The notes below the pieces were generated by a model that did not search any database, had not been told where the DNA came from, and saw nothing but the letters and a program-made list of their open reading frames with translations. A DNA stretch of 64,000 nt. It comes from a virus. The stretch is taken from positions 1-64,000 of the IMG/VR virus record IMGVR_UViG_3300029349_000001, one strand, 5' to 3'. A program made the position numbers and the translations under genes. Below, one piece after another: positions 1-60,200 of the stretch. Numbering within the stretch: position 1 is the stretch's first letter; every line of letters starts with the position of its first letter.

Positions 1-40
1 GGATCTGGATACGTAAGAATTATAGTATGGAGTTAAAATT

Positions 41-727
41 ATGAAAAAGTATAGAATATTAGACACTACTCCAGAAGTACCGCCAGAGGTTACACTAGAA
101 GTTACACCAGAAGTTACACCAGAGGTTACACTAGAAGTCACGCAGGAAGTAACACCAGAGGTTACACCAGAAGTTACACCAGAGGTTACACTAGAAGTCA
201 CGCAGGAAGTAACACCAGAGGTTACACTAGAAGTCACGCCGGAAGTAACACCAGAGCCTGTGATGGAAACTCCAACTCCTCCGATTACAACGCCAGTTAT
301 ACCGCCACAGATAAGCGAATTAACACAGTCTTGGGCCTTAGTCAGAGATTCAGATGGATTAGTTGAAACATTTTTAAGACTTGATCTACCATTGGGTTGG
401 CAACCGCCAGAAGGTTTTAGTTTAATTCCTGATGATCAGCTGCCAGCGGGATGGAGTAAAATACCTCAAGAAATACCAGCACCATCAACCATTACAGCAA
501 CACAAATTAGACTATGGTTAGTAAATAATGGTTTTTCTATGAATCAAATATACGATATTATCTCTCAGATACCAGACCCCTTATTAAAAGCACAAATAGA
601 AGTTCAGTGGGAATATGCTCCTTATGTAGAGCGTGATCATCCTATGATAAATACTTTGGGTGCCTCGTTAGGACTTAGTAGTGAACAAATAGACCAAGCA
701 TTTAGAGAAGCTTCAGTATTGCTCTAA
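41..727 (+). CDS. Tail fibre-associated protein with an N-terminal (P/L/Q)EVT repeat tract
   Basis: 228-aa ORF with a GGAG RBS upstream. The C-terminus (ITATQIRLWL...WEYAPYVERDHP...LGLSSEQIDQAFREA) resembles small proteins commonly found beside phage tail fibres. Confidence 0.6.
   Translation: MKKYRILDTTPEVPPEVTLEVTPEVTPEVTLEVTQEVTPEVTPEVTPEVTLEVTQEVTPEVTLEVTPEVTPEPVMETPTPPITTPVIPPQISELTQSWALVRDSDGLVETFLRLDLPLGWQPPEGFSLIPDDQLPAGWSKIPQEIPAPSTITATQIRLWLVNNGFSMNQIYDIISQIPDPLLKAQIEVQWEYAPYVERDHPMINTLGASLGLSSEQIDQAFREASVLL
71..250 (+). repeat. In-frame 12-bp tandem repeat (about 15 units) with a 60-bp higher-order period
   Basis: Units such as ccagaggttaca/ctagaagtcacg; 101-167 is repeated at 161-227. 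Confidence 0.95.
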
Positions 728-744
728 ATCTATAAGGATAATTT

Positions 745-3700
745 ATGGGAAATTTAATTCCATCAAATAATAATGATGATAATTTAGACTTTAATCCAAC
801 CAAACTTCCTGGATGCAAGGTTTGGATAGATGCTACTGATGAATCTACACTATTTACCACCGATTATCAAGGATCTGTAACAGTTGCAGATAGTTTTGTT
901 CCTACTAGTATTAGTGGATGCTCAAGTTGGTACGATAGTTCGGATTCGTCTACATTATATAACACTAGTGCTGGACCCGTTACCGCAGTATCATCTCCAA
1001 CAGGTATTAGTGGATGCTCTTTATGGTTAGACGCTAGTGATTCAACGACACTATATAAAACAGATGCAGCATTGGTCACACCGGTCAATTCTCCATTAAA
1101 TATCAGTGGATGTGTAGCATGGTGGGACGGTAGTGATATTTCTACTTTGTTTCAAAATACTGACGGAACTAATCCTGTTACAGCGAGTGGGCAGTTAGTA
1201 GGTTCCTGGGTGGACAAGGCATCTGGATTTACTGCAAGAGCCCCGTCTACAGATAATAGGCCAATGTATCAAACATCTGTCACAAATAGTAAATCTGCCA
1301 TATTGTTTGATGGCTGGAATGATTATTTGAATTTATCTGGAATGCCTTCTCAAACAACTGAAACAATATTTATTGTAACCAGAGCAAATTATGAATTTAA
1401 TAAATGGCATGTTATTCTGGCAGGAAATAGCCCTACTGGATATGGAGCTAGTTTATTTACATCTTCTTCTGCTAGTCGTTTTAGAGCATCATATGGGGGT
1501 TTTACTCCTGGAACTACGGCTGTTGTATATGGTCTATCTGATGGAGTTAATATAGATCCATTATTAATATCTCTCAATAGAAATGCGTCCGGCACATCTT
1601 TAAGAGAATCCGCAAATACCATACAATCCAGTACAACTCCATATGCTATCACGTACAATTATATTGGTGCGGACCCTGGAACACAAAGTGTTGGTGTTGC
1701 CAATAACAATGTTATCAATGGACATATATGTGAAATTATAATTTACAACTCCGATCTATCGGCTACAGACAGAGCAAGAATAGAATCTTATTTGGCTAGT
1801 AAATGGGGTATGGGTCGTTTGTTTGATGCTGCTTCTAGTATTAGTTCTGTAGGAACTTGGCAAGATAAAAGTGGAAACAACAAACATGCAATTCAATCAA
1901 TATCTGATTATCGACCCACTATATCAATTAACGAAAATAATTTAAACGTTATAAATTTTGATGGAACCAATGATGCTTTATTAACAAATCTTACTTCGCA
2001 AATTAGTCAATCTGTATTTGTTGTTTGTAAATACAACGGCACTTCGATTAATGCCGGTAGAGTTATTTCTTTTGGTACGTATAGAGGCATTTATCAAAAT
2101 CCTGGTCCAGTATTAGCGTTTTTCTCCAATTCTGTTTCAATTGCCATAGATTTTCCTGTTAATAGTAATAATTGGTCTATTGCTTCTTTGGTATTTAACA
2201 GTAATTCACAAGCAAGTATTTTTGGTAATGGCATTGGTACTGTGTCTTCTATTAACTTTGATCCTTATGATAGAGTCAATACTACATTAAAAATAGGACA
2301 AGAAGGAGATACTCCATATAATAATTTTCCAGGAAGTATAGCAGAAATAATAGTTTTTGATAGAACAATATCTTCTTCTGAAAGAACTTCGATAGAAAAA
2401 TATTTAGCTAATAAGTGGGGAATTCAAGGTGTACATACACAGACTACATCTAGTGGATCGATAGGATATTGGGGAGATAAAAGCGGCAATAATAGACACG
2501 CAAGGCAAGATATTGGATCTTATCGACCTTCTTATTCTGGAACTATAAACGGCTTACCAGCAATAACGTTTGATGGTGCAGACGATCACTTCTTAATAGG
2601 AGATTTGTCGTCTGCGTTTCCTAATTTTGGAGAAGTATATATTGTATTTGAGCCTAATAATGCAAATAGTTATGAATTATATCAAACTAGTCAGAATTAT
2701 TTGATATATAGATATGCTGGTGGAAATACTAGTCAATTTGGAGCATTTACGTCTAATAGAACAACAGGCACTGCTGTTGGTATTCCTACTAATGGTGTTC
2801 ATATTACAACTATGAGAGCTGATGCGTCTTCTATGACTGTTAGGTTTGATGGTAGTGTTTTATGGACCCAAGCTGGCTTAGGATATAATGGAGGCAATTA
2901 TCATACCATAGGATATTGTAATCAGGGTGGTGGTGGCGTTGGTGGCATAGTAATGAATGGTAAAATAGTAGAAGTTATTACATATAATACTAATATAGGA
3001 GCTGAAAATAGAGCTAAAGTAGAACAATACCTATCTAGAAAATGGGGGATTGATAGAAATTTACATAAAACTTCCAAAAATATTGGTGATAAAATTGGCT
3101 ATGTAAAAGACAAAGGAACAGAAAAGACTTTCCTGTCTCAACTGAATCATGATAATCGCCCAAAGATAGGAACATTGTCTAATAAGAAAGCTATAGATTT
3201 TACTCAATCATCTATTAATAGTTATTTACAGTCTCCGTCTTTGACTACTAATAATCATGAATTTAGTTTTTTTGTAGCTTATAGTGTTAATAATACTAGT
3301 TCAACATTATTTACTTTAGGAGTACAAGACGCTTTAAGATTAATATCAAGATATGCTGGCAATACAGTGACATATGGGGGTACAAATACACTAGGCTATA
3401 ATAATACTCCATACCAACTATCTGTTCCTAAAATAGAAAGTTTGATAAAAACAGTAGGTGGCACAAGCTCCTCTTTTACAAAATTATATGTGAATGGACA
3501 ATTAGCAACCCCATCTAGTACTGTTGGATTGGCAGCAGATATGAGTTCTTCATATGGTTGGCTGGTTCTAAGCGGCTATAATTCTCCCTATACTTTTTTA
3601 GGGCATAATAATTTTATTATTGGCGAATTTATTTACTATAATAGAACACTATCAGATCAAGAGAGACAATTAGTTGAAAAATATCTATATAATAAATGGA

Positions 3701-18246: not shown

Positions 18247-18259
18247 ATCAACTAAGGTT

Positions 18260-18272
18260 GGTGTACTATAAA
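18260..18272 (+). promoter_or_regulatory. Candidate late promoter (GGTGTA)
   Basis: 91 bp before the tail tube ATG. Confidence 0.55.
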
Positions 18273-18350
18273 CTAGATTACTTTTAATTTTATTCTCAGA
18301 ATACAATCAAAATAACTGTCGTACAAACACTCAATTAATGGAGTTCTCTC

Positions 18351-43584: not shown

Positions 43585-46500
43585 ATGCCAATAACTATAA
43601 ATAAGCAATATCAATTTATTAAATTTTTAGGATCTTCTAATCTAAGTCTCAATAGTTTATCTGGTTCTATTACTAATCAAATTGCTATAATTTATGGTAT
43701 TTCCGCAGATGGTTCTTCATATTTATCATGGAGCAACAGTGCTTTTTCTAGTTTACAAAATCTAGAAACTTATAAGACATATCTAATTGTTAGCAATAGT
43801 GCAAATCCTAATTATACTCTATATTCAGGCAGTGAAGTAGTCGATGCGAGCACGAGTACAGAGATTACTACCACTAGATCAATGGAAACATATAGGGGCG
43901 CAACACCTCTGACACTAAGTAGTGCTAGTTTTAAAAATAATATTTTGTTGATATATGGTATTTCTAGTGATGGCTTAGGTTTCGTATCTTATAGTCCATC
44001 GTCTCAATTTAATAGTTTAACAACACTACAACCAGATGTTGGATATGAGTTTGTTACCAACGGCACTCCTTTTACACTGTGGTTGGCTCCTGGAGCATCT
44101 CCCACCCCAACGCCAACCCTCACAGCAACACCAACACTAACGCCGACCAATACCCCAACAAGAACTCTTACCCCAACACCTACTTTAACAGCAACTGTTA
44201 CTGCCACACCAACGCTCACACCATCATTAACGCAAACCAATACGCCCACACGCACACTCACTCCTACTCCTACGCTTTCTCCCACTCCAACGAGTAGTCC
44301 TCTATTAAGTCCTAATTTTGCTAATTATAATAATCAATCTATTTTTAAAGGACTAGCTAATAGTAGTACTGTTGGTACTAACGGAGCAAAAAGCTCGTAT
44401 GGTTGCCATGACATGAGTGGAAATGTTTCGGAGTGGGTTGGTCAAGCCACCGATGTTTGTTTAAGAGGCGGTAATTTTTCGTCTTCTTCAAATGATATTT
44501 CAAAATACGGTAGATTAGTAGTAGCCGCTACCGTATCTGATCCAGCCACGGGCTTTAGAATTGCTACGTCTGGCACAAATGGCGACCACCTATCACTAGG
44601 TAATTTCATTACTATTGGAAATACTAATAACGTATCTGATCCTGATACGAGTTATGGCGCTGTGGCATATTCTTATCGCATATCTAAATTTCAGGTTACC
44701 AATGATGAATATTGTGCTTTCTTAAATAGTCAAGCAAAATTAGATACAAAAGCATTATATAATTCTTTAATGAGTAACGATGCGGAAAGAGGAGGTATAT
44801 TGAGAGGTGGATCACCAGGATCCTATTACTATGTAAGCAAAATGCATCATGGTAATAAACCAGTTAATTATGTTAATTGGATAGATTGTGCCAGATACTG
44901 TAATTGGATACATAATGGAGCAACAGACACTAGCGATACAGAAAATGGAGCATATACCATCAATCCGTTGGGAGCTGTGGCAAGAAACACAGGCGCTAAA
45001 TACTGGATACCTCTAGAAAATGAATGGTATAAGGCAGCTTTCTATGATCCAGCCTCTACCAGTTACTATTTATATAGCACACAAAATAATAGCACACCAA
45101 CAGCAGCATCTCTTAACACTAATGGAGATGGGCCATTTTCTCCATCTTCAGCTTTTGATGATGGACAAATACTTATTGCTGATACAACCAAGATGGTGGT
45201 ACTAGATACTAATAATCCTAGTAGTAATATTGTAAATATATCAGATATTAATACCACTCCACATAGTCTAACAGTTGGTCCGTTTAGAGATGATGCTTTT
45301 ATCTCTAATTCCGCCGGTCTTATAGATGTGGTGAGCCTAACTGCACAAAATCCTAGTGGCTGGGCCAAGGTTTTATCTTTAGCGGCTGGATCTGACGCTA
45401 GAAAAATATTAGTTAGTTCTGACGGATCAAGATTATATTGTTTAAATTATAATGATAGAACTATTACCGTATATGACCTACTCGGATCCCCTAGGTATGC
45501 TACAAGACTCATTATGGATTATCGCGGTTCGGGCATAGTATACGACTTTTGCAATGGAGAAAATGCAGACACAATCTATGTAGCCTGCTCTAACGGATAT
45601 GTAGTCAGAACCACTATTACTGGATCTTCTTATAATAATAATATTTATTATTACTATCATGGTTTTATTAACCAGCCAGTATCAATGACTTTCTTACAAA
45701 ATCAAATATATGTAGCCTTGGTTGATGGTGCTACTACTATTAAAACCCGCAATATAAATAATGGCGCAGAAGCGACTATTAGTATTGTTGGATTAAGTAA
45801 TTTTGGACAGGCTTCTACAGTGACTGTTGTTAGATTGGCTTTATACAATGATCCTTATAACAAATATTTAGTTTTGACAGGAGAAATATCTAATCTTAAT
45901 AGAGGAGTTATATATTATTATAATCCCCTATATAACAGACAAATGTCTATCAGTTATACCGATACTGTATCAACAATCGGTATTTATACCAATATTGCAC
46001 AAAATAAAGACTATGCATATTTATTTGCCGGTAATAGATTGCTAACTTTTGATTCAACTAATAAATATTTTAGAACCTCGGTCGTTGTATCTCCCACTTT
46101 CAATAGTTCTATTATTAGAGATGTTGAGTTTAGAAGCAATACCGCGATACCAGCACCGTCTCCTTCTCCAACACCAACTAATACTACTACTCCAACCAGA
46201 ACACCCACTAATACGCCAACAGTCACCCCAACCAACACTGTTACCCCTACATTCACTTCTACCCCAACACCAACTCCAACACAAGAACCTCCTGTAGTAT
46301 ATTCTAACTCTATGGTGGCGGCTGTGGGTGCTAACGATGTGGGCCAATTAGGAGACGGCACTTATGGTTCATCCAAGGTCTTTAAGCATATAACTGCCCC
46401 ATCAGGAAATGTATTTAATTATAATGTAAGAGCTAGTTCTTTAGGTAGTCATAATCTCATTATTGATTCCAGCAATAGACTTTGGGGATGGGGTAATAAC

Positions 46501-47388
46501 GATAGGGGTCAAGTTGGTCCGTCAGCATGGACTAGTGTGGCTCCTTCTGGTAGTGGTTTGAATACCAATCCTTCTACTATGGCATATGATACAGTTAGTA
46601 ATAGGTATGCTATATTTGGTCTTTCAAGTAATGTTGTTAATGTTTCGACTAATGGTACCGTTTGGACAAGTGCAACTATCGGAACAGCTCCTCCATCTTT
46701 AAATTGGACAACATCTATCGGATGGAATAACAATACTTCCACAGGTGGAGGATCTCCACAAACTAATCAATACTCTATCTTTGCATTAGCTAATAACTCC
46801 AATATTCTTGCAGCATATAGCAATTCAAATAATACCTGGGTATCACCCAGCTTGTCTGTTACAAGAAATTGGACCGCTATGGTACAATCAAGAAATAAGA
46901 TTTTAGCTTTTGCTAGCAATAGCAACAATGTATTTACTATAGTTCCCGGAGCAAATAATACTATTACAACATCTGACGTAAGCCTAGGCTTAGGGTCTTT
47001 AAATGTGTTCTGGAAAACTGCGGCTGTTAATAGTAATGGCTCTACTATACTAGCAATTGGGTACGATTCAAGAACCATTGTTCGTAGTACTGATAGTGGC
47101 GCTTCTTGGTCGCAGGCTGGTGTTTCTTTACCTTTAGTTGCCAAATGGGAGAAGATTATTTGTTCTAACAACAGATGGATCTTAATCGCTTCTGATCAGG
47201 ATAGTGTATATACTAGTGATGATAATGGATCTAATTGGACAGCTCGCTCAACCAGCAGCACCAACCCGTCTTGGACTCAAATATCAGTCTATAATAATAC
47301 CATTATTTTAGTTGGATTAAATAATAACTATTACTTAACAAGTACTGATAATGGCACATCTTGGAAAAAACGATTCTTAGGCGTATAA
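43585..47388 (+). CDS. Multidomain appendage protein: permuted FGE-sulfatase-like domain, beta-propeller, two RCC1 blades, BNR/Asp-box propeller
   Basis: DMSGNVSEW, GFRIA, ENEWYKAA; GANDVGQLG, GNNDRGQVG; SxDxGxxW boxes. Confidence 0.8.
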   Translation: MPITINKQYQFIKFLGSSNLSLNSLSGSITNQIAIIYGISADGSSYLSWSNSAFSSLQNLETYKTYLIVSNSANPNYTLYSGSEVVDASTSTEITTTRSMETYRGATPLTLSSASFKNNILLIYGISSDGLGFVSYSPSSQFNSLTTLQPDVGYEFVTNGTPFTLWLAPGASPTPTPTLTATPTLTPTNTPTRTLTPTPTLTATVTATPTLTPSLTQTNTPTRTLTPTPTLSPTPTSSPLLSPNFANYNNQSIFKGLANSSTVGTNGAKSSYGCHDMSGNVSEWVGQATDVCLRGGNFSSSSNDISKYGRLVVAATVSDPATGFRIATSGTNGDHLSLGNFITIGNTNNVSDPDTSYGAVAYSYRISKFQVTNDEYCAFLNSQAKLDTKALYNSLMSNDAERGGILRGGSPGSYYYVSKMHHGNKPVNYVNWIDCARYCNWIHNGATDTSDTENGAYTINPLGAVARNTGAKYWIPLENEWYKAAFYDPASTSYYLYSTQNNSTPTAASLNTNGDGPFSPSSAFDDGQILIADTTKMVVLDTNNPSSNIVNISDINTTPHSLTVGPFRDDAFISNSAGLIDVVSLTAQNPSGWAKVLSLAAGSDARKILVSSDGSRLYCLNYNDRTITVYDLLGSPRYATRLIMDYRGSGIVYDFCNGENADTIYVACSNGYVVRTTITGSSYNNNIYYYYHGFINQPVSMTFLQNQIYVALVDGATTIKTRNINNGAEATISIVGLSNFGQASTVTVVRLALYNDPYNKYLVLTGEISNLNRGVIYYYNPLYNRQMSISYTDTVSTIGIYTNIAQNKDYAYLFAGNRLLTFDSTNKYFRTSVVVSPTFNSSIIRDVEFRSNTAIPAPSPSPTPTNTTTPTRTPTNTPTVTPTNTVTPTFTSTPTPTPTQEPPVVYSNSMVAAVGANDVGQLGDGTYGSSKVFKHITAPSGNVFNYNVRASSLGSHNLIIDSSNRLWGWGNNDRGQVGPSAWTSVAPSGSGLNTNPSTMAYDTVSNRYAIFGLSSNVVNVSTNGTVWTSATIGTAPPSLNWTTSIGWNNNTSTGGGSPQTNQYSIFALANNSNILAAYSNSNNTWVSPSLSVTRNWTAMVQSRNKILAFASNSNNVFTIVPGANNTITTSDVSLGLGSLNVFWKTAAVNSNGSTILAIGYDSRTIVRSTDSGASWSQAGVSLPLVAKWEKIICSNNRWILIASDQDSVYTSDDNGSNWTARSTSSTNPSWTQISVYNNTIILVGLNNNYYLTSTDNGTSWKKRFLGV

Positions 47389-47394
47389 TATAAG
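47380..47394 (+). promoter_or_regulatory. Candidate late promoter (GGCGTA variant)
   Basis: 35 bp before ATG 47415; overlaps the last codons of 43585. Confidence 0.4.
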
Positions 47395-47414
47395 TATAAT
47401 ATCAAGGATACATT

Positions 47415-50400
47415 ATGGCTAATTTTAGAAATCTTATCACAGGAAATGGTATACTTCTAGGACTGTCTGATGATAATCAGATGTATGTTTTAGGGGATAA
47501 TGCTAATAAAAATACAGTATCCAGAATCGGTAATGATGGTCCACTATACGCCGCCGGATGGAAATCAGCATCGGTTAACGCCAAGCATTCCGCAGCTATT
47601 ACCAATAATGGACAACTATATGTATGGGGAGACAACTCCTATGGTCAATTAGGCATAGGAGGATCAGTAGCGTCTTCTATGGATCCTATATTATTAGATA
47701 ATAGTGAATGGCTTAGTGTAAGTTGTGGAGCAAGACATACCGTAGGTATTAAAAAAGATGGATCTTTATGGGGTTGGGGATCTAATCAATTTGGTCAATT
47801 AGGACCAAACGCAGCAACTATACAATATGTACCTTATAGAATATCCGAGCCTTCTTTTAGCAACGTGGCCTTATTGTTGCACCTTAATGGTTTTGCTGGA
47901 TCAACTACGATTTCTGATAGTTCTTTATTATCTAAAAATGTTAAGATTATAGGATCTGGGAGACTATCTTCTACTCAGTCTAGGTTTGGAGGTATATCTT
48001 ATTATTATGGAGATACTGGCAGCAGTGGTATAGATGCCAACGGCTCATATGATGATCTAAAATTTGGTACTGGTGACTTTACAATAGAGGGATACTACTA
48101 CTTAAATAGTAATAGTAGCGACAACTTCTTATATGATACAAGACATCCCTGGAATGCATCAGGAGGATCTTACGCATATGTTACTAGTACTGGCGTACTT
48201 AATGTAGAAGGTCAGACCACTATTATTATGCCAACCAATCGTTGGGTTCATGTGGCTTTTAGTAGACAAAACGGTATATTAAGAACATTTTTTGATGGAG
48301 TATTAGTATATACTCAATCTTCAACCACTAACTACGATTCGGGATACTGCTATATTGGTGCTGCTGCTTACTATCCTGCTGGTGCCGCACCCTTCAGAGG
48401 TTACATAGACGAGGTAAGGGTTACTAAGGGAATTGCTAGATACGTATCAACCTTTACGGCTCCCACAATACCCTTTATGGACTCTAGCGATTCTTATTTA
48501 AAAATTGCTGCTGGTTCCTTCTTTAATTTAGCTATTAAAGCAGATAACACTCTTTGGAGTTGGGGCGATAATTCGTATGGACAATTAGGCACATCTTCTA
48601 CTGTCGCATCTAGACCAACACTTACACAAATTGGTACAGATAATAATTGGGTTGATATAGTATGTGGAGATAGTCATGCTCTAGCAGTTAAGTCCGATGG
48701 CTCTTTATATTCCTGGGGATATAATGCTTTGGGTCAGTGTGGTGTTGGTACTTCTAATGAGAGTTATAATAGTCCTATAGCTGTAACCGGGGTTCACGAT
48801 GGAGCTACTTATCGTCCAATTTTAGGCATTACTTTAGATAATGAAAAAAGAATAGCTTGTGGAAAAAATCACAGCTTTATTATCGCAAGAACAGCACTAG
48901 GAGATAATATCCTATTCGGCACTGGAGATAATAGCAACGCCCAATTAGGCACAGGAAACAATGATTCTAAAACAGTATTTACTGCCGTTGATCTTAGTAG
49001 AAGATTCATCTCTACAGATGCTGGTGTGAATCATAGTTTAGGCAAACTAGACTTACCAGAAAATCAACCAACTCCTAGTCCAACTCCCACACTAACTCCA
49101 ACACCAACAGTTACCGCAACCAATACTCCAACTGTAACACCAACTAGAACCGCTACGCCAACACTAACGGCCACTCCATCTGCAACCCCGGTTGGACCAC
49201 CACCTTCTCCGTCCCCAACTGCTACAGTATCACCCACTCCTTCTTTACCAGCTAGGGCAGGCTTTAATTGGTTTCCTATCAATATTGTTTCCAGAGCTTT
49301 TAATAGTGTAGTATACGGCGCTAAGCTCGATAGATTTATTGCTATGCCGAGAAATGGCAATATTCCAGCCATATCAGAAAATAGTACTGCCACAAGTTGG
49401 ATTGACACAAACTCCTTGCCTTCTAATATGGCTCTGCCAGAAGTTATAGATGCTAGACACTACTTGTTTTCATATGATCCTTCTTCGAGTCCAAGAGCTA
49501 ATGGTAACACGATAGCAATCTCTAAAAATGGGTTCGACTGGATTAACAATACTGTAGTAAGAACAGACTCTAATAGTTATAGTATAGTAAGCGCATCGTC
49601 TTATACTAGTTTGTCTAGTGTTGATGGACACATTGTTGCTGTGGGACCAGTTGCTAATAGTGGTAACAGAACAGCTCTTAGATATAAAAAAATTACAGTT
49701 AAGGATACTGATAATATTTCAGCCAGTATGATCCCAGAGCGAGACTTTGCTCCATTCTTAGATGCAAATAATCGTCCGATCTTAACGATAAATACAGCTA
49801 ATTATAATAATCATGTGGGCAGCGTAACAGATGTAAGATATAATGGTGGTTCTAGCGCATATGGCGCTTTCGATATGACAGGCAACGTAGATGAATGGAC
49901 AGGAACATCTGGTACCGGAGGAACATCATTCTTTACTTTGGGAGGAAACTATACTGCTAGTAATCCATCCAAAGATAATGTGACTACAACACAATCTTCG
50001 TCGTCTTCTATAGGGACAAGAGGTTTTAGACTTGCTAGTGTAACAAATCCAACTAATAATTATAGCACATTTGTGTCTGTTGGAGATATCAACAATGATT
50101 CGGATAACGGTGTGGGTTCTGTTACTTCTAATTATCGTATTGGTACATATCCTGTGACAAATTTGGAATATGTTGAATTTTTAAATGCTGTTCAGCCCAC
50201 CGGCAGCATTAGTGAATTACACAATATTCCCTCCTTAGCTGATAAAGACGTAGGAATTAAATTACCATATACGATATCTAATACTATAGAGAGTAATTCA
50301 ATCTACTCATATGGCATAGCGATTAATCCTAATACCAATAGAGCATATGTATGTAAATACTATGACAGTAGTTTACAAGTTATAGATCTTAATACTTCTA

Positions 50401-52571
50401 CGATTATAGCAACTATTAATGTTGGTAGTCAACCATGGGATGTTATATGTGATCCAGCCAACAATAGAATTTATGTTTCTGTATCCGGCGGCGCAAGAAT
50501 TAGAGTGATTGACGGAACTAATAATACTATTATAGGTAATATTACAACACAGAGTTTTCCACGCTATATGGCATTAGATAGTGCCAACAATAAATTGTAT
50601 GTGTCATTTTCTACGAATAGTTTTAGTGTGATTGATGTTACAACCATTACGACTAATATGTTGGTACAAACAACTTCTTCTGTCATCGGTACTCCATTAG
50701 GTATGGCCGTAGATTCCACTAACAATAGACTATATATTGGGTATTCTGATTCCACAGGGGCGTATATTAGGGTTGTGAATGCTTCTAATATTAATACGAT
50801 TATATCAACCATTTCTTTACAAAGCAATACGTATCCTTTTGATCTAAAGCTGAATAGCGATAGAAGTAGACTTATTGTAGCCGAAAGCAATAGCAAGTCA
50901 TTAACTATTATTAATACTACAACTAATTCTATTATTGCTAGAATACCATTATCAACTACTACAATAGCTGGCTTCTCACTAGATGCACAAAACAAGGCCT
51001 ATATTGCAGGATATGGGGACAATAGTTTAATAATAGTAGATACCAATACCTCAGCTTTGGTTGGAAAGGTTGTATTATCTAATACTAATATTAATCCACA
51101 AGACGTGGCCATTGCTAATAATAAAATATATATAGTTAATTGGGGCGATAGTAAGGTATTTACTGTAGAAGTATCTAATACCTATACGACTATACCAGGA
51201 ATGGAATATAAACCAGTATCTTATATAAATTGGTATAATGCTGCTCGTTATTCTAATTGGTTGTCAAACGGAAAACCTGTTGGAGTACAGTCCTCAACAA
51301 CAACAGAAAATGGCGCATATCAGCTCAATGGAAATACTGGAAATCCCACACTAAATACAACTAATCCCAATACAGGATCTGCTCCGGCTTATTATCTACC
51401 TTCTAGAAATCAATGGTATAAAGCAGCATACTATAAGGGTGGTAATACCAATGCTGGATATTGGCTATACGGAAACTCATCAGATACATTATCTCCAGCA
51501 TATTTATTCGGCAATAGTCTAGAGAATCTACCAGCCGCCAGTAGTGTTGTCAAAGTTAGAAAAGACGGACTAGTGGTGGTTGCTGGACAAGGATTCGTGT
51601 TGATGTCTAACATGGTTCCAAATACTGTACCAAACTGGAATTATTATCCTCTTACACAACTAACTGAACCTACAGACATATTATTTGGGGATAATAACAG
51701 AATCGTTATTCTACAAAGCACACTCGGAGTCGTATCTGCTAATAATAGATACTATTATAGTGACGCTGTAAATTACTCCAATAGTTATCCTTCTGTTAGT
51801 TGGACAATAGGAAATCTGCCCGCGACAACCCTAACTACATCTGTTGGAGCATCCGCTTATGACAATGGTGTGTTTGTGGTCATACCTCTTTCTGCTTCAT
51901 TATCTTCGTCTTCTTTTGTTTCTTCTGATGGTATTAATTGGAATACTATTTCTTCTAGTGTGCTATCTAATAAGATATGGAGAGGCTTAGCTAGTAAGAG
52001 TAATCTATTTGTAGCGGTTGGAGACAATTCACCACTAGCTGCTATTAGCTATAGTGATATCAGAACCACACCAACCCCCACAGCAACGCCCACAGTTACT
52101 CCATCAAATCTAGGTATCGTAATTACACAACAACCGAAAAATGTTGATATAGTTCTCGTGGCAGATAATAATGCTGGAGGTGTCGCGGTCTTTAATGTTA
52201 CCGCTAGTTCTAGATCTCCAATTGCATATCAGTGGTATGAGTCTGTTAGTAATGGGCCGTTTACCGCTATTCCAAATGCTACGCTCAATAGTTTATCTAT
52301 CAATAATATTACTAGTAGTAAGCATGGTAATAGATATTATGTTAAATTAACATCTGGTACTATTGTAGTAGATAGTAGTATCGCAACCCTAAATGTATTC
52401 ACAAATTCACCCATTACTATTCTACAACAACCTAGTAATACCACTGCGGTTAGTGCTGCGGCATCTTTTACCGTATTGGCCACTATCAACTATCCTTCAC
52501 CAACCCCTACAATAACAGCTACTAGTACTCCAACGCCGACCCCAACAGTTACCCCTTCTAGGTCTGTATGA
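47415..52571 (+). CDS. Multidomain appendage protein: five RCC1 blades, LamG, permuted FGE-like domain, YVTN-like propeller, Ig-like domain
   Basis: WGDNSYGQLG repeats; GYIDEVRVTKG; DMTGNVDEW; NRIYV/IATINVGSQP repeats; QQP...YQW. Confidence 0.8.
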   Translation: MANFRNLITGNGILLGLSDDNQMYVLGDNANKNTVSRIGNDGPLYAAGWKSASVNAKHSAAITNNGQLYVWGDNSYGQLGIGGSVASSMDPILLDNSEWLSVSCGARHTVGIKKDGSLWGWGSNQFGQLGPNAATIQYVPYRISEPSFSNVALLLHLNGFAGSTTISDSSLLSKNVKIIGSGRLSSTQSRFGGISYYYGDTGSSGIDANGSYDDLKFGTGDFTIEGYYYLNSNSSDNFLYDTRHPWNASGGSYAYVTSTGVLNVEGQTTIIMPTNRWVHVAFSRQNGILRTFFDGVLVYTQSSTTNYDSGYCYIGAAAYYPAGAAPFRGYIDEVRVTKGIARYVSTFTAPTIPFMDSSDSYLKIAAGSFFNLAIKADNTLWSWGDNSYGQLGTSSTVASRPTLTQIGTDNNWVDIVCGDSHALAVKSDGSLYSWGYNALGQCGVGTSNESYNSPIAVTGVHDGATYRPILGITLDNEKRIACGKNHSFIIARTALGDNILFGTGDNSNAQLGTGNNDSKTVFTAVDLSRRFISTDAGVNHSLGKLDLPENQPTPSPTPTLTPTPTVTATNTPTVTPTRTATPTLTATPSATPVGPPPSPSPTATVSPTPSLPARAGFNWFPINIVSRAFNSVVYGAKLDRFIAMPRNGNIPAISENSTATSWIDTNSLPSNMALPEVIDARHYLFSYDPSSSPRANGNTIAISKNGFDWINNTVVRTDSNSYSIVSASSYTSLSSVDGHIVAVGPVANSGNRTALRYKKITVKDTDNISASMIPERDFAPFLDANNRPILTINTANYNNHVGSVTDVRYNGGSSAYGAFDMTGNVDEWTGTSGTGGTSFFTLGGNYTASNPSKDNVTTTQSSSSSIGTRGFRLASVTNPTNNYSTFVSVGDINNDSDNGVGSVTSNYRIGTYPVTNLEYVEFLNAVQPTGSISELHNIPSLADKDVGIKLPYTISNTIESNSIYSYGIAINPNTNRAYVCKYYDSSLQVIDLNTSTIIATINVGSQPWDVICDPANNRIYVSVSGGARIRVIDGTNNTIIGNITTQSFPRYMALDSANNKLYVSFSTNSFSVIDVTTITTNMLVQTTSSVIGTPLGMAVDSTNNRLYIGYSDSTGAYIRVVNASNINTIISTISLQSNTYPFDLKLNSDRSRLIVAESNSKSLTIINTTTNSIIARIPLSTTTIAGFSLDAQNKAYIAGYGDNSLIIVDTNTSALVGKVVLSNTNINPQDVAIANNKIYIVNWGDSKVFTVEVSNTYTTIPGMEYKPVSYINWYNAARYSNWLSNGKPVGVQSSTTTENGAYQLNGNTGNPTLNTTNPNTGSAPAYYLPSRNQWYKAAYYKGGNTNAGYWLYGNSSDTLSPAYLFGNSLENLPAASSVVKVRKDGLVVVAGQGFVLMSNMVPNTVPNWNYYPLTQLTEPTDILFGDNNRIVILQSTLGVVSANNRYYYSDAVNYSNSYPSVSWTIGNLPATTLTTSVGASAYDNGVFVVIPLSASLSSSSFVSSDGINWNTISSSVLSNKIWRGLASKSNLFVAVGDNSPLAAISYSDIRTTPTPTATPTVTPSNLGIVITQQPKNVDIVLVADNNAGGVAVFNVTASSRSPIAYQWYESVSNGPFTAIPNATLNSLSINNITSSKHGNRYYVKLTSGTIVVDSSIATLNVFTNSPITILQQPSNTTAVSAAASFTVLATINYPSPTPTITATSTPTPTPTVTPSRSV

Positions 52572-52573
52572 AT

Positions 52574-52591
52574 GGTGTAATTACTAATATA
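52574..52591 (+). promoter_or_regulatory. Candidate late promoter (GGTGTA)
   Basis: 44 bp before ATG 52618. Confidence 0.55.
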
Positions 52592-52617
52592 ATTCATTTT
52601 AAATTAAAGGCTAAACT

Positions 52618-55600
52618 ATGGGATTAACATATCAATGGCAAGTATCAACAGATAATACAGCGACAGTATTCGTTGACTTGCAAGACGGTCCATTGGTATC
52701 TGGAACCAAGACTCAAACACTATTATTTAACAATCTAACAGTAGCTGATAATAATAAAAAATATCGCGTAATTATCGGTAGTACAGATTTTAATGTGGCT
52801 CCTGTTGTTAGTGATGCTGCTACTCTTTTCACAGCTCCCTCTATTACTTTAAGTACAATCCCAGATATAGCCACAACAGCGACAACAGCAACATTTTCTG
52901 TTAGCGGAGTAGCTAATACTGGTACTATTAGTTATCAATGGCAAAAAAGAGTACCTTGCGCCCCAACTGCTACAGAACCATGTTTTATTAATTTAGTAGA
53001 TCAAACAGGTTCCGTTAGCGGTGCTCTTACTCCAAATCTTATTTTAACTGGATTAACAGCTGCGGTACATAATAATTCTCAATACCGAGTTGTTGCCAGC
53101 GCACAGTGTTGTGGAACAACCGCCATTACACAATCATCAAATGTCGCAACACTACAAGTTGCCACACAAGGACAAACACTATTTATTACTAAAGACTTAA
53201 CAGATGCAATAATAGCAACAGACAAAACTGCTTCTTTTAATATAGAGATACAAACGACAACAACCAATTCGACACCGGTCCCAGTAACATTCGGATGGCA
53301 AAAATTAGTTGCTGGGAGTTGGGTAAATGTAACTAATAATCAACCGATACAAAGTTCAGTTATTAATCCTACATTATTGCTATACAAACAAACACTAGCT
53401 ATTACTAGTGCTATTGATAGCGAATCTTATAGAGTTGTGGTAAACGATGGAAGGTCATCCGCCACCAGCGCTACCGCAAAGAGTAAGAATCCCGCCACAT
53501 GTACTGATTGTGGAGGTAGTGGTACTGGAGATCCACACTTTTATATAGGCGGGAATTACGGCTTTGATGATAATCCGATTATTAACGGACACAAAGAAAT
53601 TGTAATGCTTTATATAAAAAACAAAAAAGACAATACCGAGCACGTATTAACTTGCAAAAATACTGGAGCTTTCGGCAAGTCTTCTCCATATAACGTAGAA
53701 AGAACTTCATATACACAATTTAAAGATGGTAAAATTGTTGGAGCCAGAGTAGACAACGGAAAAGCAGATATGATGGGTGTGGCAATGATGAACGCCGCTT
53801 CTGGACGTTTTGCTTTTACTTGGTCTGTTCTAAACCCCTCTAATATCCACAAAGCTCAAGACTTAGATATAGTTATTGGTGGTGCGTGGTATTGGATGTG
53901 CAAGTCCCTAATTCAATATCTAAAAAAGAATCCGTCTTTCATGAGTTTAGGATGGCCATATATTGGTTGGATTCATGCTGATGGCATCGGTTTGGGATTG
54001 GCTCCATATAATCTTATCAGAGAGAATTTTGAAATAGATAATTTATATCTTAAAAATAGTGGAAGTGCGAATATTGACGGTCTTTATATAGCTTCTAGCA
54101 AAGATGATAAGAATAGTACTAGATACAATAAAGACAATAGTGCATATTCCATAATTAGAGATCGCGGACTATGGCAAATCAAAACCAGGGTTCTGTCTCC
54201 TATCGCAATGACTAAAATTTCTGATACGCAATTTAGCATCAGCACATCTCGCTATATAGATGCAGAAAGTCTAAGTGTTGGCCTTGGGGTTGGTAGTAGT
54301 GCGGCTGGCGTTGTTGCTGGAAATCCTATCATATCATCTATCTCGTATAAATATCCTGCTCAAGCTATGGCGAGAGAAGATGTAGCGCCTATCACTGCTG
54401 AAATCACCGTAAGTGGTGGGCAGATTCTACAAAGCGGCTCCGTTATTTTTGGATATTTTGTAGACACCACAAACACTAGTAATAGTATTACACTACCTAA
54501 TCTCTTTACAGCTTCAGATATATATATTGGTCAAAAAATTACTATTAGCGGAGCTACATCTGCTAATACTACAATTACTAATATTAACGGGAATATATTA
54601 ACACTAAGTAGTAATTGTACTGCTACTGGTAGGTTCCCACTAGAAATTATTTATGCTGAATCTTTTGAAGACAATACTACTTCTCCAGATTTATCTGGGG
54701 GATGGTTAAAAAATAAAAATATTATTCCAGACATTAAATTATTACCATTATTATCTAGTCCAGAAGGCATATCTAAAATTGCAGAAGATATCACCGCCAA
54801 TCCTCGTTTTTGGCATGAGTTGTCTTTGGCTCTATCGGGCAAGCCTCTAGACGGAACTCCAGTAAATAGTATAGTAGCACAACCCAAAGATACTATCTCT
54901 GTCAATGGAATAGCGTCTTTTACTGTGGTTGCTGAATTGGCCAGTTCCAAATATCAGTGGCAAAAATCCACAGACAACGGAGTGTCTTGGATAGATATAG
55001 CTGGAGCTACTAATGCTACACTTGTAGTTAATGCTATTAAATCTGATAACGGATCGTTGTTCAGAGTAAAAGTTGACACTGTTCTTACCAGTAGTAGTGC
55101 TAAGTTATCTGTTCCATCTACTCTTAGAGTCCAACAAGAACCATCAAATACTAGTGCTATTAATCTACAGGCCGTATTCGGTGTTGTTGCTAGCGGAGTA
55201 CAGCCGATTACATATCAGTGGCAAAAATCCGACGATAATGGCGCAACATTCTCTAATGTGCCAAACAACAATCTACCTACCCTTACCTTGAGTAATCTTA
55301 AAGCTGAAGATGATAATGATCTATATAAAGTTTCTGTGGCCGACGGAGCCGGAGATTCCTATACATCAGCCGCTTATAAGCTCTTTATTAATCCAGTCTT
55401 AAGTATCACATCGCACCCGACTACACAAACAGCATCCGAGGAAGAAACAGCTACTTTTAGTGTTTCTGGCACTTGCAATAACGGGTTGTTTAAACACCAA
55501 TGGGAAGTATCTACCAATAATGGCGTATCATATGCGGCCGTTGGAGAACCTTCTTATTCTGGTAATTTAAATTTAAGTGGTCTCAAGATATATGATGATA

Positions 55601-57291: not shown

Positions 57292-57295
57292 TCAC

Positions 57296-60200
57296 ATGAC
57301 ACAAATTTATACATCTAATACTGTTTTAGTCAAAGCAAAAGCGCCTATTGTTAATTTTTCTGAAGGCGACTCCGCGACATTAGTAGCTGATATTAGTATT
57401 ATATGGATCAACCCAAGCTCGGCACAAAGGTTTTTGACTCATAAATGGCAAGAGTCCAATGACGGAGGAGTAACCTGGAGAGATATTAGCTCAGGTATTG
57501 CGGACCATCCACTATCAACAAATAATATAGCTCCAACCAAAACCGTATCTTTGCTCGATAATCAACTTGCAGATCTAGAATTATCAGAGTTTAATATTGC
57601 CAAAACTAAGCCAATAGTAGCTTCTCTCACCATCGATAACGTACTATTAAGTCAAGATAATTATTTATACAGATGCATAGTGTTGTTATATAACAATGAT
57701 ATTAATACAATTGAGAGTGCTGGTACTAGTGAAAATATTTTCCTCAATATTTCAGAGAAAAAAACAGGTCATTTATTACCTAATTTTGATATTCCTTGGG
57801 ATCCTATGAATCCTCGTGGAGTAATCAAATCTGGAAATCTTAAGTTTGATCAAAACACTAAGATAGAGTTATTTAAGCTTACAAAAGATGCTTGTGGTTC
57901 TCAGTGGAGAATTATAGAGGTAGGCTATGGAACTCAGTATATCAACGGCAATATCACTAATGGTATGCCAGTAGGCTTACCCAAAACTTATGGCCCCAAC
58001 GATCAAACATATCCGGGCTATATGGAATTACAGTTTTATTGTAATAATAGTTGGGTAACACAGGAATCTTGGATATCTTTAGTGGGCAATGATGAACACG
58101 TATTTGAAAAATATGGACCAATATCTCCAGTAACCGTATCTATCAACGGAGAAGCTTTAGTTAGTCAAACATCTTTAGGTACGAAAGATAATCCTTTAGT
58201 TATTAAACCAACACCCGGTGCAACAGGAGGTTCGTCTCTAGATGTTACTGGTGTTTCAGATAATAGCACCGTATCTGTATCATGGAATGGAACAGCCCTA
58301 GGGTATAGTAACACATTAGGTATCCAACAAGCTGGAACACAAACCATAACCGTACCATCATCCTTCGTTCTGCCTGTACAAGTTACTATTACAGGAGGAT
58401 GTGATGATGACTTGGTAGTTAATGGTCAGGTTATTAATCAGAATAATTTAGCTGATAATGTTAACTATACTTTTACTTGTGAGACCAGAACATTTACTGT
58501 AAGTGTTTACAATGCTATGGCTGGCGGTACTGCTTATGACTATAATATTTCTTTTGCTGGGACTCAAAGCGCTAATAGTGCTGTTTCCGCTATTAGGTCT
58601 GACACTACTAATATTTTAACAATATCACAAGCTTCAGAAACTAAAAATGTAAGTGTTAATAGCAATAATAATAATTGGACCGAGGCTGGTATTAATGTAC
58701 AAGAAGGATCTAGACTGTTTATATCTGCTACTGGCAGCATACAGTGGTCTACTAATAATTTTAGCAGTCCTTCTGGTGTTGGTTCTGGTAATGCTGTTTT
58801 ATATAGCGGCATTCCCCAATCAGCTTTAGTTGGAAGAATAGGAACAACTGGAACGCCATTTTATATAGGAGATTACTATAATAGCTTTGCTAATGGTAGT
58901 GGTCCTCTATTCTTGTCTGTCAATGATAGTAATAAGAATGATAATTCTGGATCATATGCGTCTATCATAAAATATGCAACACCAGATCCTTTGGGCATTA
59001 AAGTTACAACATTGAATTCTGAGCCTTATGATTCTACCATTCAAGACCTAGATTTTTCCAAGGTGAGCTTATTATTAAAATCCGATAATGACTCATTAAA
59101 TGATGTTTCGGCCAAGCCAAAATCTTTTACTAGTACCAACGTTAGTTTTAGTAGTCAGATAAATACTTTTGGTGGTTATTCTGCATACTATGGAGACAGT
59201 GGATATTCTGTAGCTAATTCCGATAGTTCTCTAGGATTCTCTGGTGATTTTACTATTGAAGGATGGTTTTATTTCTCTAAGAATAATGTTGGATACCAGG
59301 GTTTAGTTTCCACATATAGAACCGGAGACATTAGTGGATGGATATTGGTTTTAGAGAGTAATAACACTTTAAGATTTTACGCTACTAATGCTAATATTAC
59401 TTGGTATTGGCCCCTATCTATATCTTCTAATTATACTCCGCCAACAGAGAAATGGACATATATTGTTGTACAAAGACTTGGTTCCTCTGTGAAGATGTTT
59501 GCTGATGGAGTAGAAGTTGGATCAACTTCTAATAATCTGGATATAACAAGCGGCTCCAAGATAGAAGTAGGCGGTTATCAATACTTTCCGGGTGGACGTA
59601 GATCATTACAAGGATATGTTGACGAAGTTAGAATTACTAAAGGATTGGCCAGATATCCACAGAGCAACCCGCCACTACCAAACAAACCCTTTCCGAAACG
59701 ATCATATAGTGCTACACAAATAATAGATATCTCTGGTAGTCAGAAATCAGCCACTCCAGTATACGATAGTAACGGAAATTTTCTTTACTACGAATTTAAC
59801 TCCAAGAATAGTTACATAGGTCCGTACAACGAGCCTGGACAGCTTAGTTTGGTTTATGGGTATGTTTCTGGCTCTCCGATAGTCGCACAGACACCGGCAG
59901 AAGGATATTTCCAAGCTTTTGATGGCAGTGATAGATATTTCAGAAAACTTGGGGTTTATGATTTAGATTGCTGTTATATGGGTGGCTACACACCAGATGA
60001 CGGATACTATATATTATCCAGGAGAGCTGACGGTCAGTATGTAGTATCAGAAAGCGTTAGATGGTATGCTGCTAATGGATATGCTGTTGGAACCATAGTG
60101 CCATATCCTCCTCAAATTAATCAAGTAGGAGATAATGGACATCCTAATAATAGCGCATCATGGAGATCGTGGAGTTGGAGTAATTCGTGCTGTAATAATG

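What the first reader, a model, noticed from the sequence alone, without database searches (positions are those of the whole stretch)
46312..49045. Seven-bladed RCC1 propeller split 2+5 across two separate genes
Seen: gene 43585 has exactly two RCC1 signatures (GANDVGQLG, GNNDRGQVG) and then an inserted Asp-box propeller that stops mid-series. Gene 47415 opens with the next blade-like segment (NFRNLITGNGILLGLSDDNQMYV), supplies five more RCC1 signatures (GDNSYGQLG, GSNQFGQLG, GDNSYGQLG, GYNALGQCG, GDNSNAQLG) and ends the domain on a closing half-blade (FISTDAGVNHSLG). The genes are in different frames, 26 bp apart, and 47415 has its own AAGGA RBS. Established: RCC1 propellers have seven blades. 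Inference: the two proteins lock together by co-folding shared propellers.
Basis: partly seen in the sequence, partly recalled or inferred. Interest (0 to 1): 0.88.

Follow-up and report, generated by a model that had tools for sequence, protein, structure and literature searches.

The report
Phage propeller split across two genes
Two neighbouring structural genes of a large uncultured phage each encode part of one RCC1-type propeller domain (with a second propeller nested in it), and modelling suggests but does not prove that the two proteins snap together by rebuilding it, a joint known from Sec13/Nup145C that I did not find described for phage fibres.

Summary
Gene A (43585-47388) carries 1.5 RCC1 repeats after a Pro/Thr linker, then six Asp-box blades, then stops. 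Gene B (47415-52571) starts 26 nt later in another frame with its own GGA ribosome site. It opens with a blade-like segment, has five clear RCC1 signatures plus one degenerate one, has a LamG domain inserted, and ends the domain on a two-strand half blade before the next Pro/Thr linker.

The boundary is not an assembly error. Five divergent relatives keep stop, spacer (15-29 nt) and the MANFRN start, and a sixth has a whole extra gene in between. No fused form was found.

Folded alone, gene B's propeller matches seven-bladed RCC1 structures but lacks about half a blade. Gene A's RCC1 piece and gene B's first 46 residues are low-confidence alone, yet they are conserved at least as well as the rest of their modules.

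The complex prediction supports binding but does not show it: score 0.72, best control 0.00. Its surest contacts pair gene B's orphan strand with gene A's first RCC1 strand. The contact pattern favours a reciprocal swap, 2+5 RCC1 blades and 6+1 Asp-box blades.

The next junction (B/C) splits an Ig domain in the same way. This scan has unchecked notes of similar split joints in other giant phages.

The parts
43585..47388 (+). Gene A (P0001, 1267 aa). It is a multidomain structural protein with Pro/Thr linkers, an FGE-sulfatase-like domain, a propeller-like region and the C-terminal split module.
   Evidence: ORF list and translation; Pfam.
46309..46401 (+). X: gene A residues 909-939. This is the first RCC1 unit, consisting of strand 3, the signature GANDVGQLG and strand 4 (the two outer strands of a blade). 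It follows directly after a Pro/Thr linker.
   Evidence: It matches the start of the Pfam WD40_RLD profile (2-69/363). pLDDT is below 50 when folded alone. The least-error contacts of the complex model pair residues 911-916 with gene B residues 540-544. Mean pairwise identity among relatives is 0.62, against 0.56 for the whole module.
46405..46548 (+). Y: gene A residues 941-988, one complete RCC1 repeat with signature GNNDRGQVG.
   Evidence: hhalign gives 95-97% to gene B repeats R2-R5. It is the most conserved segment of the module (0.67). Nearly every residue (947-960, 964-986) touches gene B in the complex model.
46570..47385 (+). B1-B6: gene A residues 996-1267, six Asp-box (BNR-like) four-stranded blades. 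The chain ends flush with the last strand of blade 6.
   Evidence: In the AF2 model the blocks have pLDDT 75-93 and there are 24 strands. Asp-box motifs STDSGASW, SDDNGSNW and STDNGTSW are read in the sequence. Pfam PSII_BNR and BNR hits are below cut-off. VIA best matches are 7- and 8-bladed propellers.
47389..47414 (+). Intergenic spacer of 26 nt with AAGGA at 47404-47408, 6 nt before the ATG, and TAA in gene B's frame at 47397-47399.
   Evidence: Sequence. Relatives have spacers of 26, 28, 15 and 29 nt, each with a GGA core.
47415..52571 (+). Gene B (P0002, 1718 aa).
   Evidence: Eleven orthologues at 50-99% identity over the aligned N-terminal ~560 residues all begin M[AV]N[FLM][RK][NK].
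47415..47558 (+). R1: gene B residues 1-48, a blade-like segment with three predicted strands and the degenerate signature GDNANKNTV. It is the candidate seventh blade of the Asp-box ring, or alternatively the first RCC1 blade.
   Evidence: pLDDT is 32-52 when folded alone. There are 15 invariant residues in 48. Nearly all residues touch gene A in the complex model. hhalign is ambiguous: 83% to R4, 26% to B5.
47559..47858 (+). R2-R3: gene B residues 49-148, two complete RCC1 blades.
47859..48488 (+). LamG (concanavalin-like) domain inserted between RCC1 blades 3 and 4, gene B residues about 149-358.
   Evidence: Pfam Laminin_G_3 213-336, E 3e-12. VIA matches to LamG-like folds cover residues 144-353.
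48489..49001 (+). R4-R6: gene B residues 359-529, three complete RCC1 blades.
49002..49058 (+). R7(AB): gene B residues 530-548, the two inner strands only of the last blade, followed by the invariant KLD..NQP and a Pro/Thr linker.
   Evidence: Strands 531-536 and 541-545. The aligned range stops about 33-43 residues short of full seven-bladed references. The match runs to the end of the Pfam profile, position 362/363. It forms an interface with X in the complex model.

Best explanation
One RCC1-like seven-bladed propeller domain is encoded across two genes. The domain is bounded on both sides by Pro/Thr linkers and has two nested inserts, an Asp-box propeller and a LamG domain. Its order is: linker - X(outer half blade) - Y(blade) - six Asp-box blades | stop, 26 nt, start | R1 - R2 - R3 - LamG - R4 - R5 - R6 - R7(inner half blade) - linker.

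The two polypeptides are made separately and reassemble by strand and blade complementation. Gene A's X supplies the two missing outer strands of gene B's last blade.

In the register I favour, about 60:40 over the alternatives if the complex is real, the swap is reciprocal:
- Gene A's Y also enters the RCC1 ring, giving 2+5 signatures.
- Gene B's first 46 residues fill the gap of gene A's six-bladed Asp-box array, giving 6+1.

The result is a pair of interlocked seven-bladed propellers. This forms a tight non-covalent joint between two successive segments of a virion fibre or adhesin.

What is shown and what is inferred:
- Shown: the anatomy, the conservation, the incompleteness of gene B's ring in the model, and the pass of the complex prediction.
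- Inferred: actual binding, the register, the origin by gene fission, and the fibre role.
For: 1. Domain limits. X starts at profile position 2 of Pfam WD40_RLD directly after a Pro/Thr linker, and R7 ends at position 362/363 directly before the next linker. At the gene boundary itself there is no linker.

2. Incomplete ring in gene B. In the AF2 model of gene B residues 1-560 (pLDDT 84.7), the last blade has two strands only. VIA gives UVR8 4dnw_A at Z 39.7, rmsd 2.3 A, 316 aligned, model 1..548 against chain 14..347. HERC2 7q40_A gives Z 38.9, rmsd 2.2, 314 aligned, chain 2991..3326. Human RCC1 1a12_A gives Z 34.7, rmsd 2.9, 319 aligned, chain 64..421. The geometry is seven-fold, but about 33-43 residues of a full ring are absent.

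3. Orphan pieces. X and Y have pLDDT below about 50 (block means 28-52) when gene A's C-terminal third is folded alone, and R1 has 32-52. Yet X (0.62) and Y (0.67) are the best-conserved parts of their module (0.56 overall), and R1 and R7 (0.56-0.60) are at or above gene B's average of 0.53.

4. Complex prediction. The model supports binding; it does not show it. The score is 0.72 and the best of 3 controls is 0.00. That mark was reached by 58 of 80 solved complexes and by 2 of 110 mismatched pairs; these counts hold only roughly because my own alignments were used. The runs agree in at least 84% of contacts, and the partner's pLDDT is at least 82. The least-error pairs are gene B 540-544 (strand HSLGK) with gene A 911-916 (strand VAAVGA), which is the canonical B-C strand pairing of an RCC1 blade.

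5. Register, from the contact lists. Nearly all residues of Y and of R1 touch the other chain. All four strands of R2 touch gene A. On Asp-box blades 1 and 6, alternate residues of the inner strands touch gene B, and in a closed ring only a neighbouring blade can do that.

6. Conserved boundary. It is kept in L012 (86% identity), L018 (84%), L002 (59-62%) and L021 (52%). In L017 (about 45-50%) gene A has an extra C-terminal domain and a 1192-aa gene lies between A and B, yet X, Y and MANIRN...R1 are all kept.

7. The next junction (B/C) splits an Ig unit in the same complementary way.
Against: - No experiment and no coordinates: the register is read from residue lists only.
- The pass of the complex prediction may come from likeness to solved single-chain RCC1 propellers. 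Pieces of a textbook fold tend to be reassembled by such models.
- By sequence there are 8 RCC1-like units, one too many for a seven-bladed ring, and R1 is weakly more RCC1-like than Asp-box-like.
- The AF2 monomer models offer a cis solution: Y closing gene A's Asp-box ring and R1 sitting in gene B's ring. Both are at low confidence.
- No unsplit homologue was found, so fission is not demonstrated.
- The alignments are shallow (12 and 7 rows).
- Conserved gene order among related phages is expected for structural genes whether or not the products bind.
Confidence: 0.62

Rival explanations
1. Independent modules. Gene A's RCC1 fragment folds in cis with its own Asp-box blades: Y serves as a seventh blade, and X is a flexible or vestigial lead-in. 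Gene B's RCC1 ring is stable as 6.5 blades. The two proteins are neighbours only because fibre genes are syntenic.
For: The AF2 monomer model of gene A's C-terminal third matches 7- and 8-bladed propellers from about residue 34-50 of the segment onward. Examples are cd1 nitrite reductase 1e2r_A (Z 22.6, rmsd 3.7, 314 aligned) and virginiamycin B lyase 2z2o_D (Z 20.8, rmsd 3.4, 273 aligned, model 50..361). This means Y joins the ring in cis. The monomer model of gene B places R1 as a normal blade. In L017 the two genes are not adjacent.
Against: In those monomer models X, Y and R1 have pLDDT below about 50. X has no partner in cis, yet it is better conserved than the Asp-box blades. Gene B's half blade has no outer strands in cis. 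The complex prediction scored 0.72 with a best control of 0.00 (with the caveats given there).
Confidence: 0.27
2. Same trans-complementation but a different register. Either only the half blade X is donated (RCC1 ring = R1-R6 + R7/X, Asp-box ring = Y + B1-B6), or the RCC1 ring has eight blades and the Asp-box ring is a closed six.
For: The X-only register keeps both monomer models unchanged. R1 is nearer to RCC1 repeats by profile. R1 connects to R2 through the usual short RCC1 strand-4-to-strand-1 link with the conserved Trp. Six-bladed Asp-box propellers are common (my own knowledge).
Against: The contact lists show gene B touching one face of the inner strands of Asp-box blades 1 and 6, and gene A touching all four strands of R2. 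Neither is expected if Y sits between B6 and B1, or if R1 sits between Y and R2. To my knowledge no eight-bladed RCC1-like propeller is known.
Confidence: 0.25
3. One polypeptide after all: an assembly indel, a recent pseudogenising mutation, or programmed recoding (frameshift, read-through, bypass) joins the two ORFs.
For: There is no linker at the boundary and the two ends are complementary. In L018 the two ORFs happen to be in the same frame, 15 nt apart.
Against: Independent assemblies from IMG/VR, ENA, NCBI and Logan all keep a stop, a spacer of varying length and frame (15, 26, 26, 28, 29 nt), a GGA site and an ATG. Gene B's frame is closed by TAA 18 nt before its ATG. L017 has an entire gene in between. 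All 11 orthologues are 1717-2199 aa and start at the same Met.
Confidence: 0.03

Closest known systems
Sec13-Nup145C, Sec13-Sec31 and Seh1-Nup85 (open six-bladed WD40 propellers completed by a blade from the partner)
   Same: A propeller that is incomplete in one chain is closed by strands donated by another chain, which makes a tight structural joint (PMC3115789 for the known cases; for this one).
   Different: - Those are eukaryotic WD40 propellers, and the partner donates one whole blade.
- Here the fold is RCC1-like and the cut runs through a blade (two strands from each chain).
- The favoured model has a second, reciprocal donation into a nested Asp-box ring.
- The setting is a phage structural protein, and binding is only predicted.
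Single-chain RCC1-like domains (RCC1, UVR8, HERC2 RLDs, RPGR, BLIP-II)
   Same: The repeat signature and the seven-fold geometry are the same: Z 37-40 at rmsd 2.2-2.4 A to UVR8 and HERC2. The Pfam WD40_RLD score is 197.8 bits against a cut-off of 150. The domain starts at strand 3 and ends at strand 2, as in those proteins.
   Different: All seven blades of those domains are in one chain and carry no nested domains. Here the start of the domain is in another gene, and two other domains are inserted.
Donor-strand complementation in chaperone-usher pili (Ig-like folds completed by a strand of the next subunit); from my own knowledge
   Same: It builds a fibre from separate gene products, each completing the fold of its neighbour. 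The B/C junction of this locus splits an Ig-like unit after its second strand.
   Different: Pili donate one strand, use a chaperone, and are bacterial. Here the A/B joint is a propeller, and no chaperone has been identified.
Oligomeric propellers built from short subunits (for example the Ralstonia lectin RSL, a trimer of two-blade subunits; Tawfik-lab fragment assemblies); from my own knowledge, not checked here
   Same: They show that propeller rings can be assembled from separate chains.
   Different: Those are homo-oligomers of whole blades. This is a hetero-pair with unequal shares and a cut inside a blade.

Membership tests
RCC1-like domain (Pfam PF25390 WD40_RLD; repeats PF00415 and PF13540) | Score above the curated cut-off. 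| tested here: met
   Gene B scores above the cut-offs: WD40_RLD 197.8 bits (cut-off 150), RCC1 144.5 (21.7), RCC1_2 141.9 (22). Gene A's fragment scores RCC1_2 23.5 (22), but WD40_RLD only 31.8 (150) and RCC1 18.9 (21.7).
RCC1-like domain | Seven blades forming a closed ring within one polypeptide. | tested here: not met
   Gene B alone gives six blades plus two strands. References align over 316 of about 365 ring residues, leaving 33-43 residues unmatched. Gene A alone has 1.5 repeats.
RCC1-like domain | Seven-fold geometry like solved RCC1-like domains. | tested here: met
   VIA: UVR8 Z 39.7, rmsd 2.3 A, 316 aligned; HERC2 RLD2 Z 38.9, rmsd 2.2 A, 314 aligned. This is a model, not a structure.
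BNR/Asp-box propeller (PF02012; PSII_BNR PF14870) | Asp-box motif S-x-D-x-G-x-x-W recurring once per four-stranded blade, and a score above cut-off. | tested here: inconclusive
   Motifs are clear in blades 4-6 and degenerate in blades 1-3. Six four-stranded blades are modelled with confidence. The Pfam scores are below cut-off: PSII_BNR 20.3 (27) and BNR 15.7 (27).
Trans-completed propeller (Sec13/Nup145C kind) | One chain has an open ring. | tested here: met
   Gene B's last blade lacks its two outer strands in the model.
Trans-completed propeller (Sec13/Nup145C kind) | The partner carries the missing strands as an otherwise orphan piece. | tested here: met
   X is strand 3, signature and strand 4. 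It matches the profile start and is disordered when folded alone.
Trans-completed propeller (Sec13/Nup145C kind) | The two chains form a stable complex with a shared blade. | not testable with these tools
   There is only a prediction: score 0.72, best control 0.00, with the caveats.
Split gene (gene fission product) | Unsplit homologues exist in other genomes. | tested here: inconclusive
   None was found. All orthologues of gene B start at the same Met. Full matches to gene A's module occur in proteins of 1255-2583 aa that never continue into the RCC1 ring. The searches are not exhaustive for long proteins.

The most novel reading that the evidence does not exclude
The four consecutive genes 43585-61654 encode one fibre or adhesin of about 6000 aa that is never covalently continuous. 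Successive segments would be fastened by rebuilding a domain cut by the gene boundary: a reciprocally blade-swapped double propeller at A/B and a split Ig unit at B/C. This would be a general snap-fastener principle of giant-phage fibres, one that also lets distal segments be exchanged by recombination at gene boundaries.
Probability: 0.35. Interest if true: 0.88.

Novelty: new variant of a known kind. Interest (0 to 1): 0.74.

Why it matters
If the joint is real, it shows how a phage can build a very long, multi-domain receptor-binding fibre from separate gene products without dedicated adaptor domains. The cut domain itself would be the connector, and its two halves guarantee specific, ordered, one-to-one assembly.

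It would be the first RCC1-type propeller I know of that is completed in trans. If the reciprocal register holds, it would be an unusual case of two propellers each built from both chains.

It also bears on annotation. Such genes look like fragments or pseudogenes and are easily merged or discarded.

The pair is small enough (about 370 + 550 residues) to test directly by co-expression. It could also serve as a natural split-protein tag.

Tried and rejected
- Assembly indel or recoding: rejected. See the third rival explanation.

Conservation in independent assemblies stands in for it.

- Fused homologues: three searches found none.
  -, candidates 944-3007 aa.
  -, exhaustive over 1.84 billion representatives.
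  -, candidates 2219-5000 aa. The single hit, P0399, continues into DUF642-like and LamG domains, not into the RCC1 ring.
  - P0136 and P0172, long RCC1+LamG proteins, are generic multi-propeller proteins and not this architecture.

- Nucleotide search of the phage collection found nothing. tblastn with gene A's module found nothing in that collection. Gene B's N-terminus gave only distant RCC1 or LamG hits in cyanophages and others.

- Deciding whether R1 is an Asp-box or an RCC1 blade by profile comparison was inconclusive: 83% to R4 against 26% to B5, both far weaker than true repeat pairs.

I used the residue lists instead.

- Literature searches for a split RCC1, or for an RCC1 joint in phage fibres, found nothing relevant.


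Full report
**Setting.**
- The window is all plus-strand genes at about 37% G+C.
- No whole genome is held for it.
- Its relatives are IMG/VR viral contigs and metagenome contigs of up to 230 kb.
- PHROG hits around the finding are to virion structural, tail and baseplate families.
- Genes 43585-61654 encode four proteins of 1267, 1718, 1557 and 1452 aa. They are made of globular domains joined by Pro/Thr linkers: FGE-sulfatase-like, LamG, Ig-like, RCC1 and Asp-box or YVTN-like propellers.
- I read them as fibre or adhesin proteins of a large uncultured phage. That role is inferred from domain content only.

**The observation.**
- Gene A (P0001) ends at 47388. Gene B (P0002) starts at 47415, after a 26-nt spacer carrying AAGGA, and is in a different frame. 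Gene B's frame is closed by TAA 18 nt before its ATG.
- After a Pro/Thr linker, gene A has:
  - X, residues 909-939: strand 3, GANDVGQLG, strand 4.
  - Y, residues 941-988: a full repeat with GNNDRGQVG.
  - Six Asp-box blades. The chain stops flush with the last strand.
- Gene B has, in order:
  - R1, residues 1-48: three strands and a degenerate signature.
  - R2 and R3.
  - A LamG insert, about residues 149-358.
  - R4, R5 and R6.
  - R7, which has only its first two strands (531-536, 541-545).
  - The invariant KLD..NQP and a Pro/Thr linker.
- Pfam's RCC1-like domain profile is matched at its very start by gene A's piece (2-69 of 363) and at its very end by gene B's last part (199-362 of 363).
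- So the two Pro/Thr linkers bracket what looks like one RCC1 domain. It starts and ends in the usual places, has two nested inserts, and has the gene boundary falling inside it without any linker.

**The boundary is real and old.**
- Related contigs keep the stop, a spacer of 26, 15, 28 or 29 nt in varying frame relation, a GGA site and the start M-[AV]-N-[FLM]-[RK]-[NK].
- Those contigs are at 86%, 84%, about 60% and 52% identity.
- All eleven orthologues of gene B found (50-99% identity over the aligned N-terminal ~560 residues, 1717-2199 aa) start at that Met.
- In L017 the gene A relative has a further domain after the Asp-box blades, and a whole 1192-aa gene lies between it and the gene B relative. 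Even so, X, Y and R1 are all retained.
- No fused form was found in three searches.
- An assembly indel, a fresh pseudogene and simple recoding are therefore excluded for practical purposes.

**Each half alone.**
- Gene B 1-560 was folded by AF2 with 12 orthologues and gave pLDDT 84.7.
- That model superposes on seven-bladed RCC1-like structures with high scores. UVR8 4dnw_A gives Z 39.7, rmsd 2.3 A, 316 aligned, model 1..548 on chain 14..347. HERC2 and human RCC1 give similar matches, each leaving about 33-43 residues of the reference unmatched.
- The model thus has seven-fold geometry with the two outer strands of one blade missing. Its first 46 residues have pLDDT 32-52.
- Gene A 895-1267 was folded with 7 rows and gave pLDDT 71.5. 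It has a confident six-blade Asp-box array, while X and Y are below about 50.
- The best structural matches of that model are 7- and 8-bladed propellers, not six-bladed ones. In the monomer model, Y is recruited at low confidence into the ring.

**Conservation of the orphan pieces.**
- Among divergent relatives, X (0.62) and Y (0.67) are the best-conserved parts of gene A's module (0.56 overall).
- R1 (0.60 and 0.56) and R7 (0.60) are at or above gene B's average of 0.53.
- The loop R37-G-N-D-G-x-L44 of R1 is invariant, although it is modelled as disordered in the monomer.
- Pieces that are disordered alone yet strongly conserved are what one expects of interface elements.

**The complex.**
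- The prediction used gene B 1-552 and gene A 902-1267, each with its alignment.
- The model supports binding; it does not show it. The score is 0.72 and the best of 3 controls is 0.00.
- That mark was reached by 58 of 80 solved complexes and by 2 of 110 mismatched pairs. The counts hold only roughly here, because my own alignments were used.
- The runs agree in at least 84% of their contacts, and the partner's pLDDT is at least 82.
- Pieces of a textbook fold tend to pass by likeness to solved single-chain structures, so this pass may partly be memory of RCC1 propellers.
- The least-error contacts pair gene B 540-544 (HSLGK, second strand of the half blade) with gene A 911-916 (VAAVGA, third strand). 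They also pair gene B's R6 signature 508-512 with X. This is exactly the canonical blade completed across the two chains.

**Which register.** By sequence there are eight RCC1-like units and six Asp-box blades, fourteen in all. Three arrangements are possible:
- Reciprocal swap: RCC1 ring = R7/X, Y, R2-R6; Asp-box ring = B1-B6 + R1.
- X only is donated: RCC1 ring = R1-R6 + R7/X; Asp-box ring = Y + B1-B6.
- An eight-bladed RCC1 ring plus a closed six-bladed Asp-box ring.

I had no coordinates, so I used the residue lists. They show the following:
- Nearly every residue of Y (gene A 947-960, 964-986) and of R1 (gene B 4, 6-17, 21-27, 30-42) touches the other chain, as for a blade sandwiched between two blades of the partner.
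- All four strands of R2 touch gene A.
- On Asp-box blade 1 (gene A 999, 1001, 1003; 1006, 1008, 1010) and blade 6, alternate residues of the inner strands touch gene B. In a closed ring only a neighbouring blade can reach these.

Two things count against it. R1 is weakly nearer to RCC1 repeats than to Asp-box blades by profile. R1 also joins R2 by the usual short RCC1 link. I put the reciprocal register at about 60% given that the complex is real.

**A second split junction.**
- Gene B ends with the first two strands of an Ig-like unit plus a Pro/Thr tail.
- Gene C starts M-G-L-T-Y-Q-W-Q, the third strand of such a unit.
- Aligned to an intact unit of gene B, the tail covers positions 1-36 and the head covers positions 36-93.
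- The head M.L.YQWQ is kept in four relatives.
- This lead came from earlier notes of this scan on the same genome. I checked it only at the sequence level.
- It makes a design principle, domains cut at gene boundaries serving as joints, more likely than a one-off accident.
- The scan also holds unchecked notes of split Ig and split propeller joints in other giant phages.

**Comparison with what is known.**
- Propellers completed in trans are known: Sec13 with Nup145C or Sec31, and Seh1 with Nup85 (PMC3115789).
- Fibres built by fold completion are known from chaperone-usher pili (my own knowledge).
- I found no report of an RCC1-type propeller completed in trans, none of a cut through a blade with reciprocal exchange into a nested propeller, and none of such a joint in a phage fibre. 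The library searched is limited to open-access papers.
- I therefore class it as a new variant of a known kind.

**Verdict.**
- I put the probability that the two products really share the propeller at about 0.6.
- The main rival, at about 0.27, is that the modules are independent and the pieces fold in cis.

Noticed in passing
window 52413-52830 (end of gene B, start of gene C): An Ig-like unit is split by the gene boundary. Gene B ends with strands A-B plus a Pro/Thr tail, and gene C begins MGLTYQWQ at strand C. The two pieces align to positions 1-36 and 36-93 of an intact unit. The gene C head is conserved in L012, L018, L021 and L019.
   Followed up: partly
L019:10000-10500: In this 49%-identity relative, gene B ends in a LamG domain (…GGYLDDIRITKGVAR…) instead of Ig strands A-B, yet gene C still starts MAILYQWQ. 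I did not check whether the Ig strands A-B lie before that LamG.
   Followed up: no
window 44311-45131 (gene A) and about 49790-51490 (gene B): By eye, the FGE-sulfatase-like domain appears circularly permuted. The part that is normally C-terminal (D.SGNV.EW … GG.F … GFR.A) precedes the normally N-terminal part (VTN.EY..FLN … PV.YV.W … E.EWYKAA) in genes A and B and in the relative P0003. Pfam shows only the pieces.
   Followed up: no
window about 49260-52065 (gene B residues about 615-1550): Nested domains: about three Asp-box-like blades, then the FGE-like domain, itself interrupted by a propeller of about 300 aa (Pfam beta-propeller hits 968-1246), then about three more Asp-box-like blades. 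This was seen in the translation and and has not been modelled.
   Followed up: no
P0249 (relative of gene A), alignment A2 columns about 148-445: A relative carries a further block of about 300 aa of Asp-box-like blades inserted after blade 1 of the six-blade array. X and Y are unchanged. This is another example of propeller-in-propeller nesting in the family.
   Followed up: no
L017:8001-19264: The gene A relative (P0251) has a DUF642-like domain after the Asp-box blades. A 1192-aa gene with a weak DUF642 hit lies between it and the gene B relative. The gene caller missed the gene B relative (ORF 16247-19264, which contains a run of N).
   Followed up: partly
window 47389-47400 and 52572-52617: The A/B spacer begins TATAAGTATAAT, also seen in L012. 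The B/C spacer carries ATGGTGTAATTACTAATATAAT, conserved in L012 and L018. These could be phage late-promoter-like elements upstream of each gene. This was not tested.
   Followed up: no
window 57291-57296: Genes C and D are only 4 nt apart. Gene C ends in Ig-like strands (…YRVVLTDPVSTVIVEN) and gene D starts MTQIYTSNTVLVKAKAPIV. I did not analyse whether this junction also cuts a domain.
   Followed up: no
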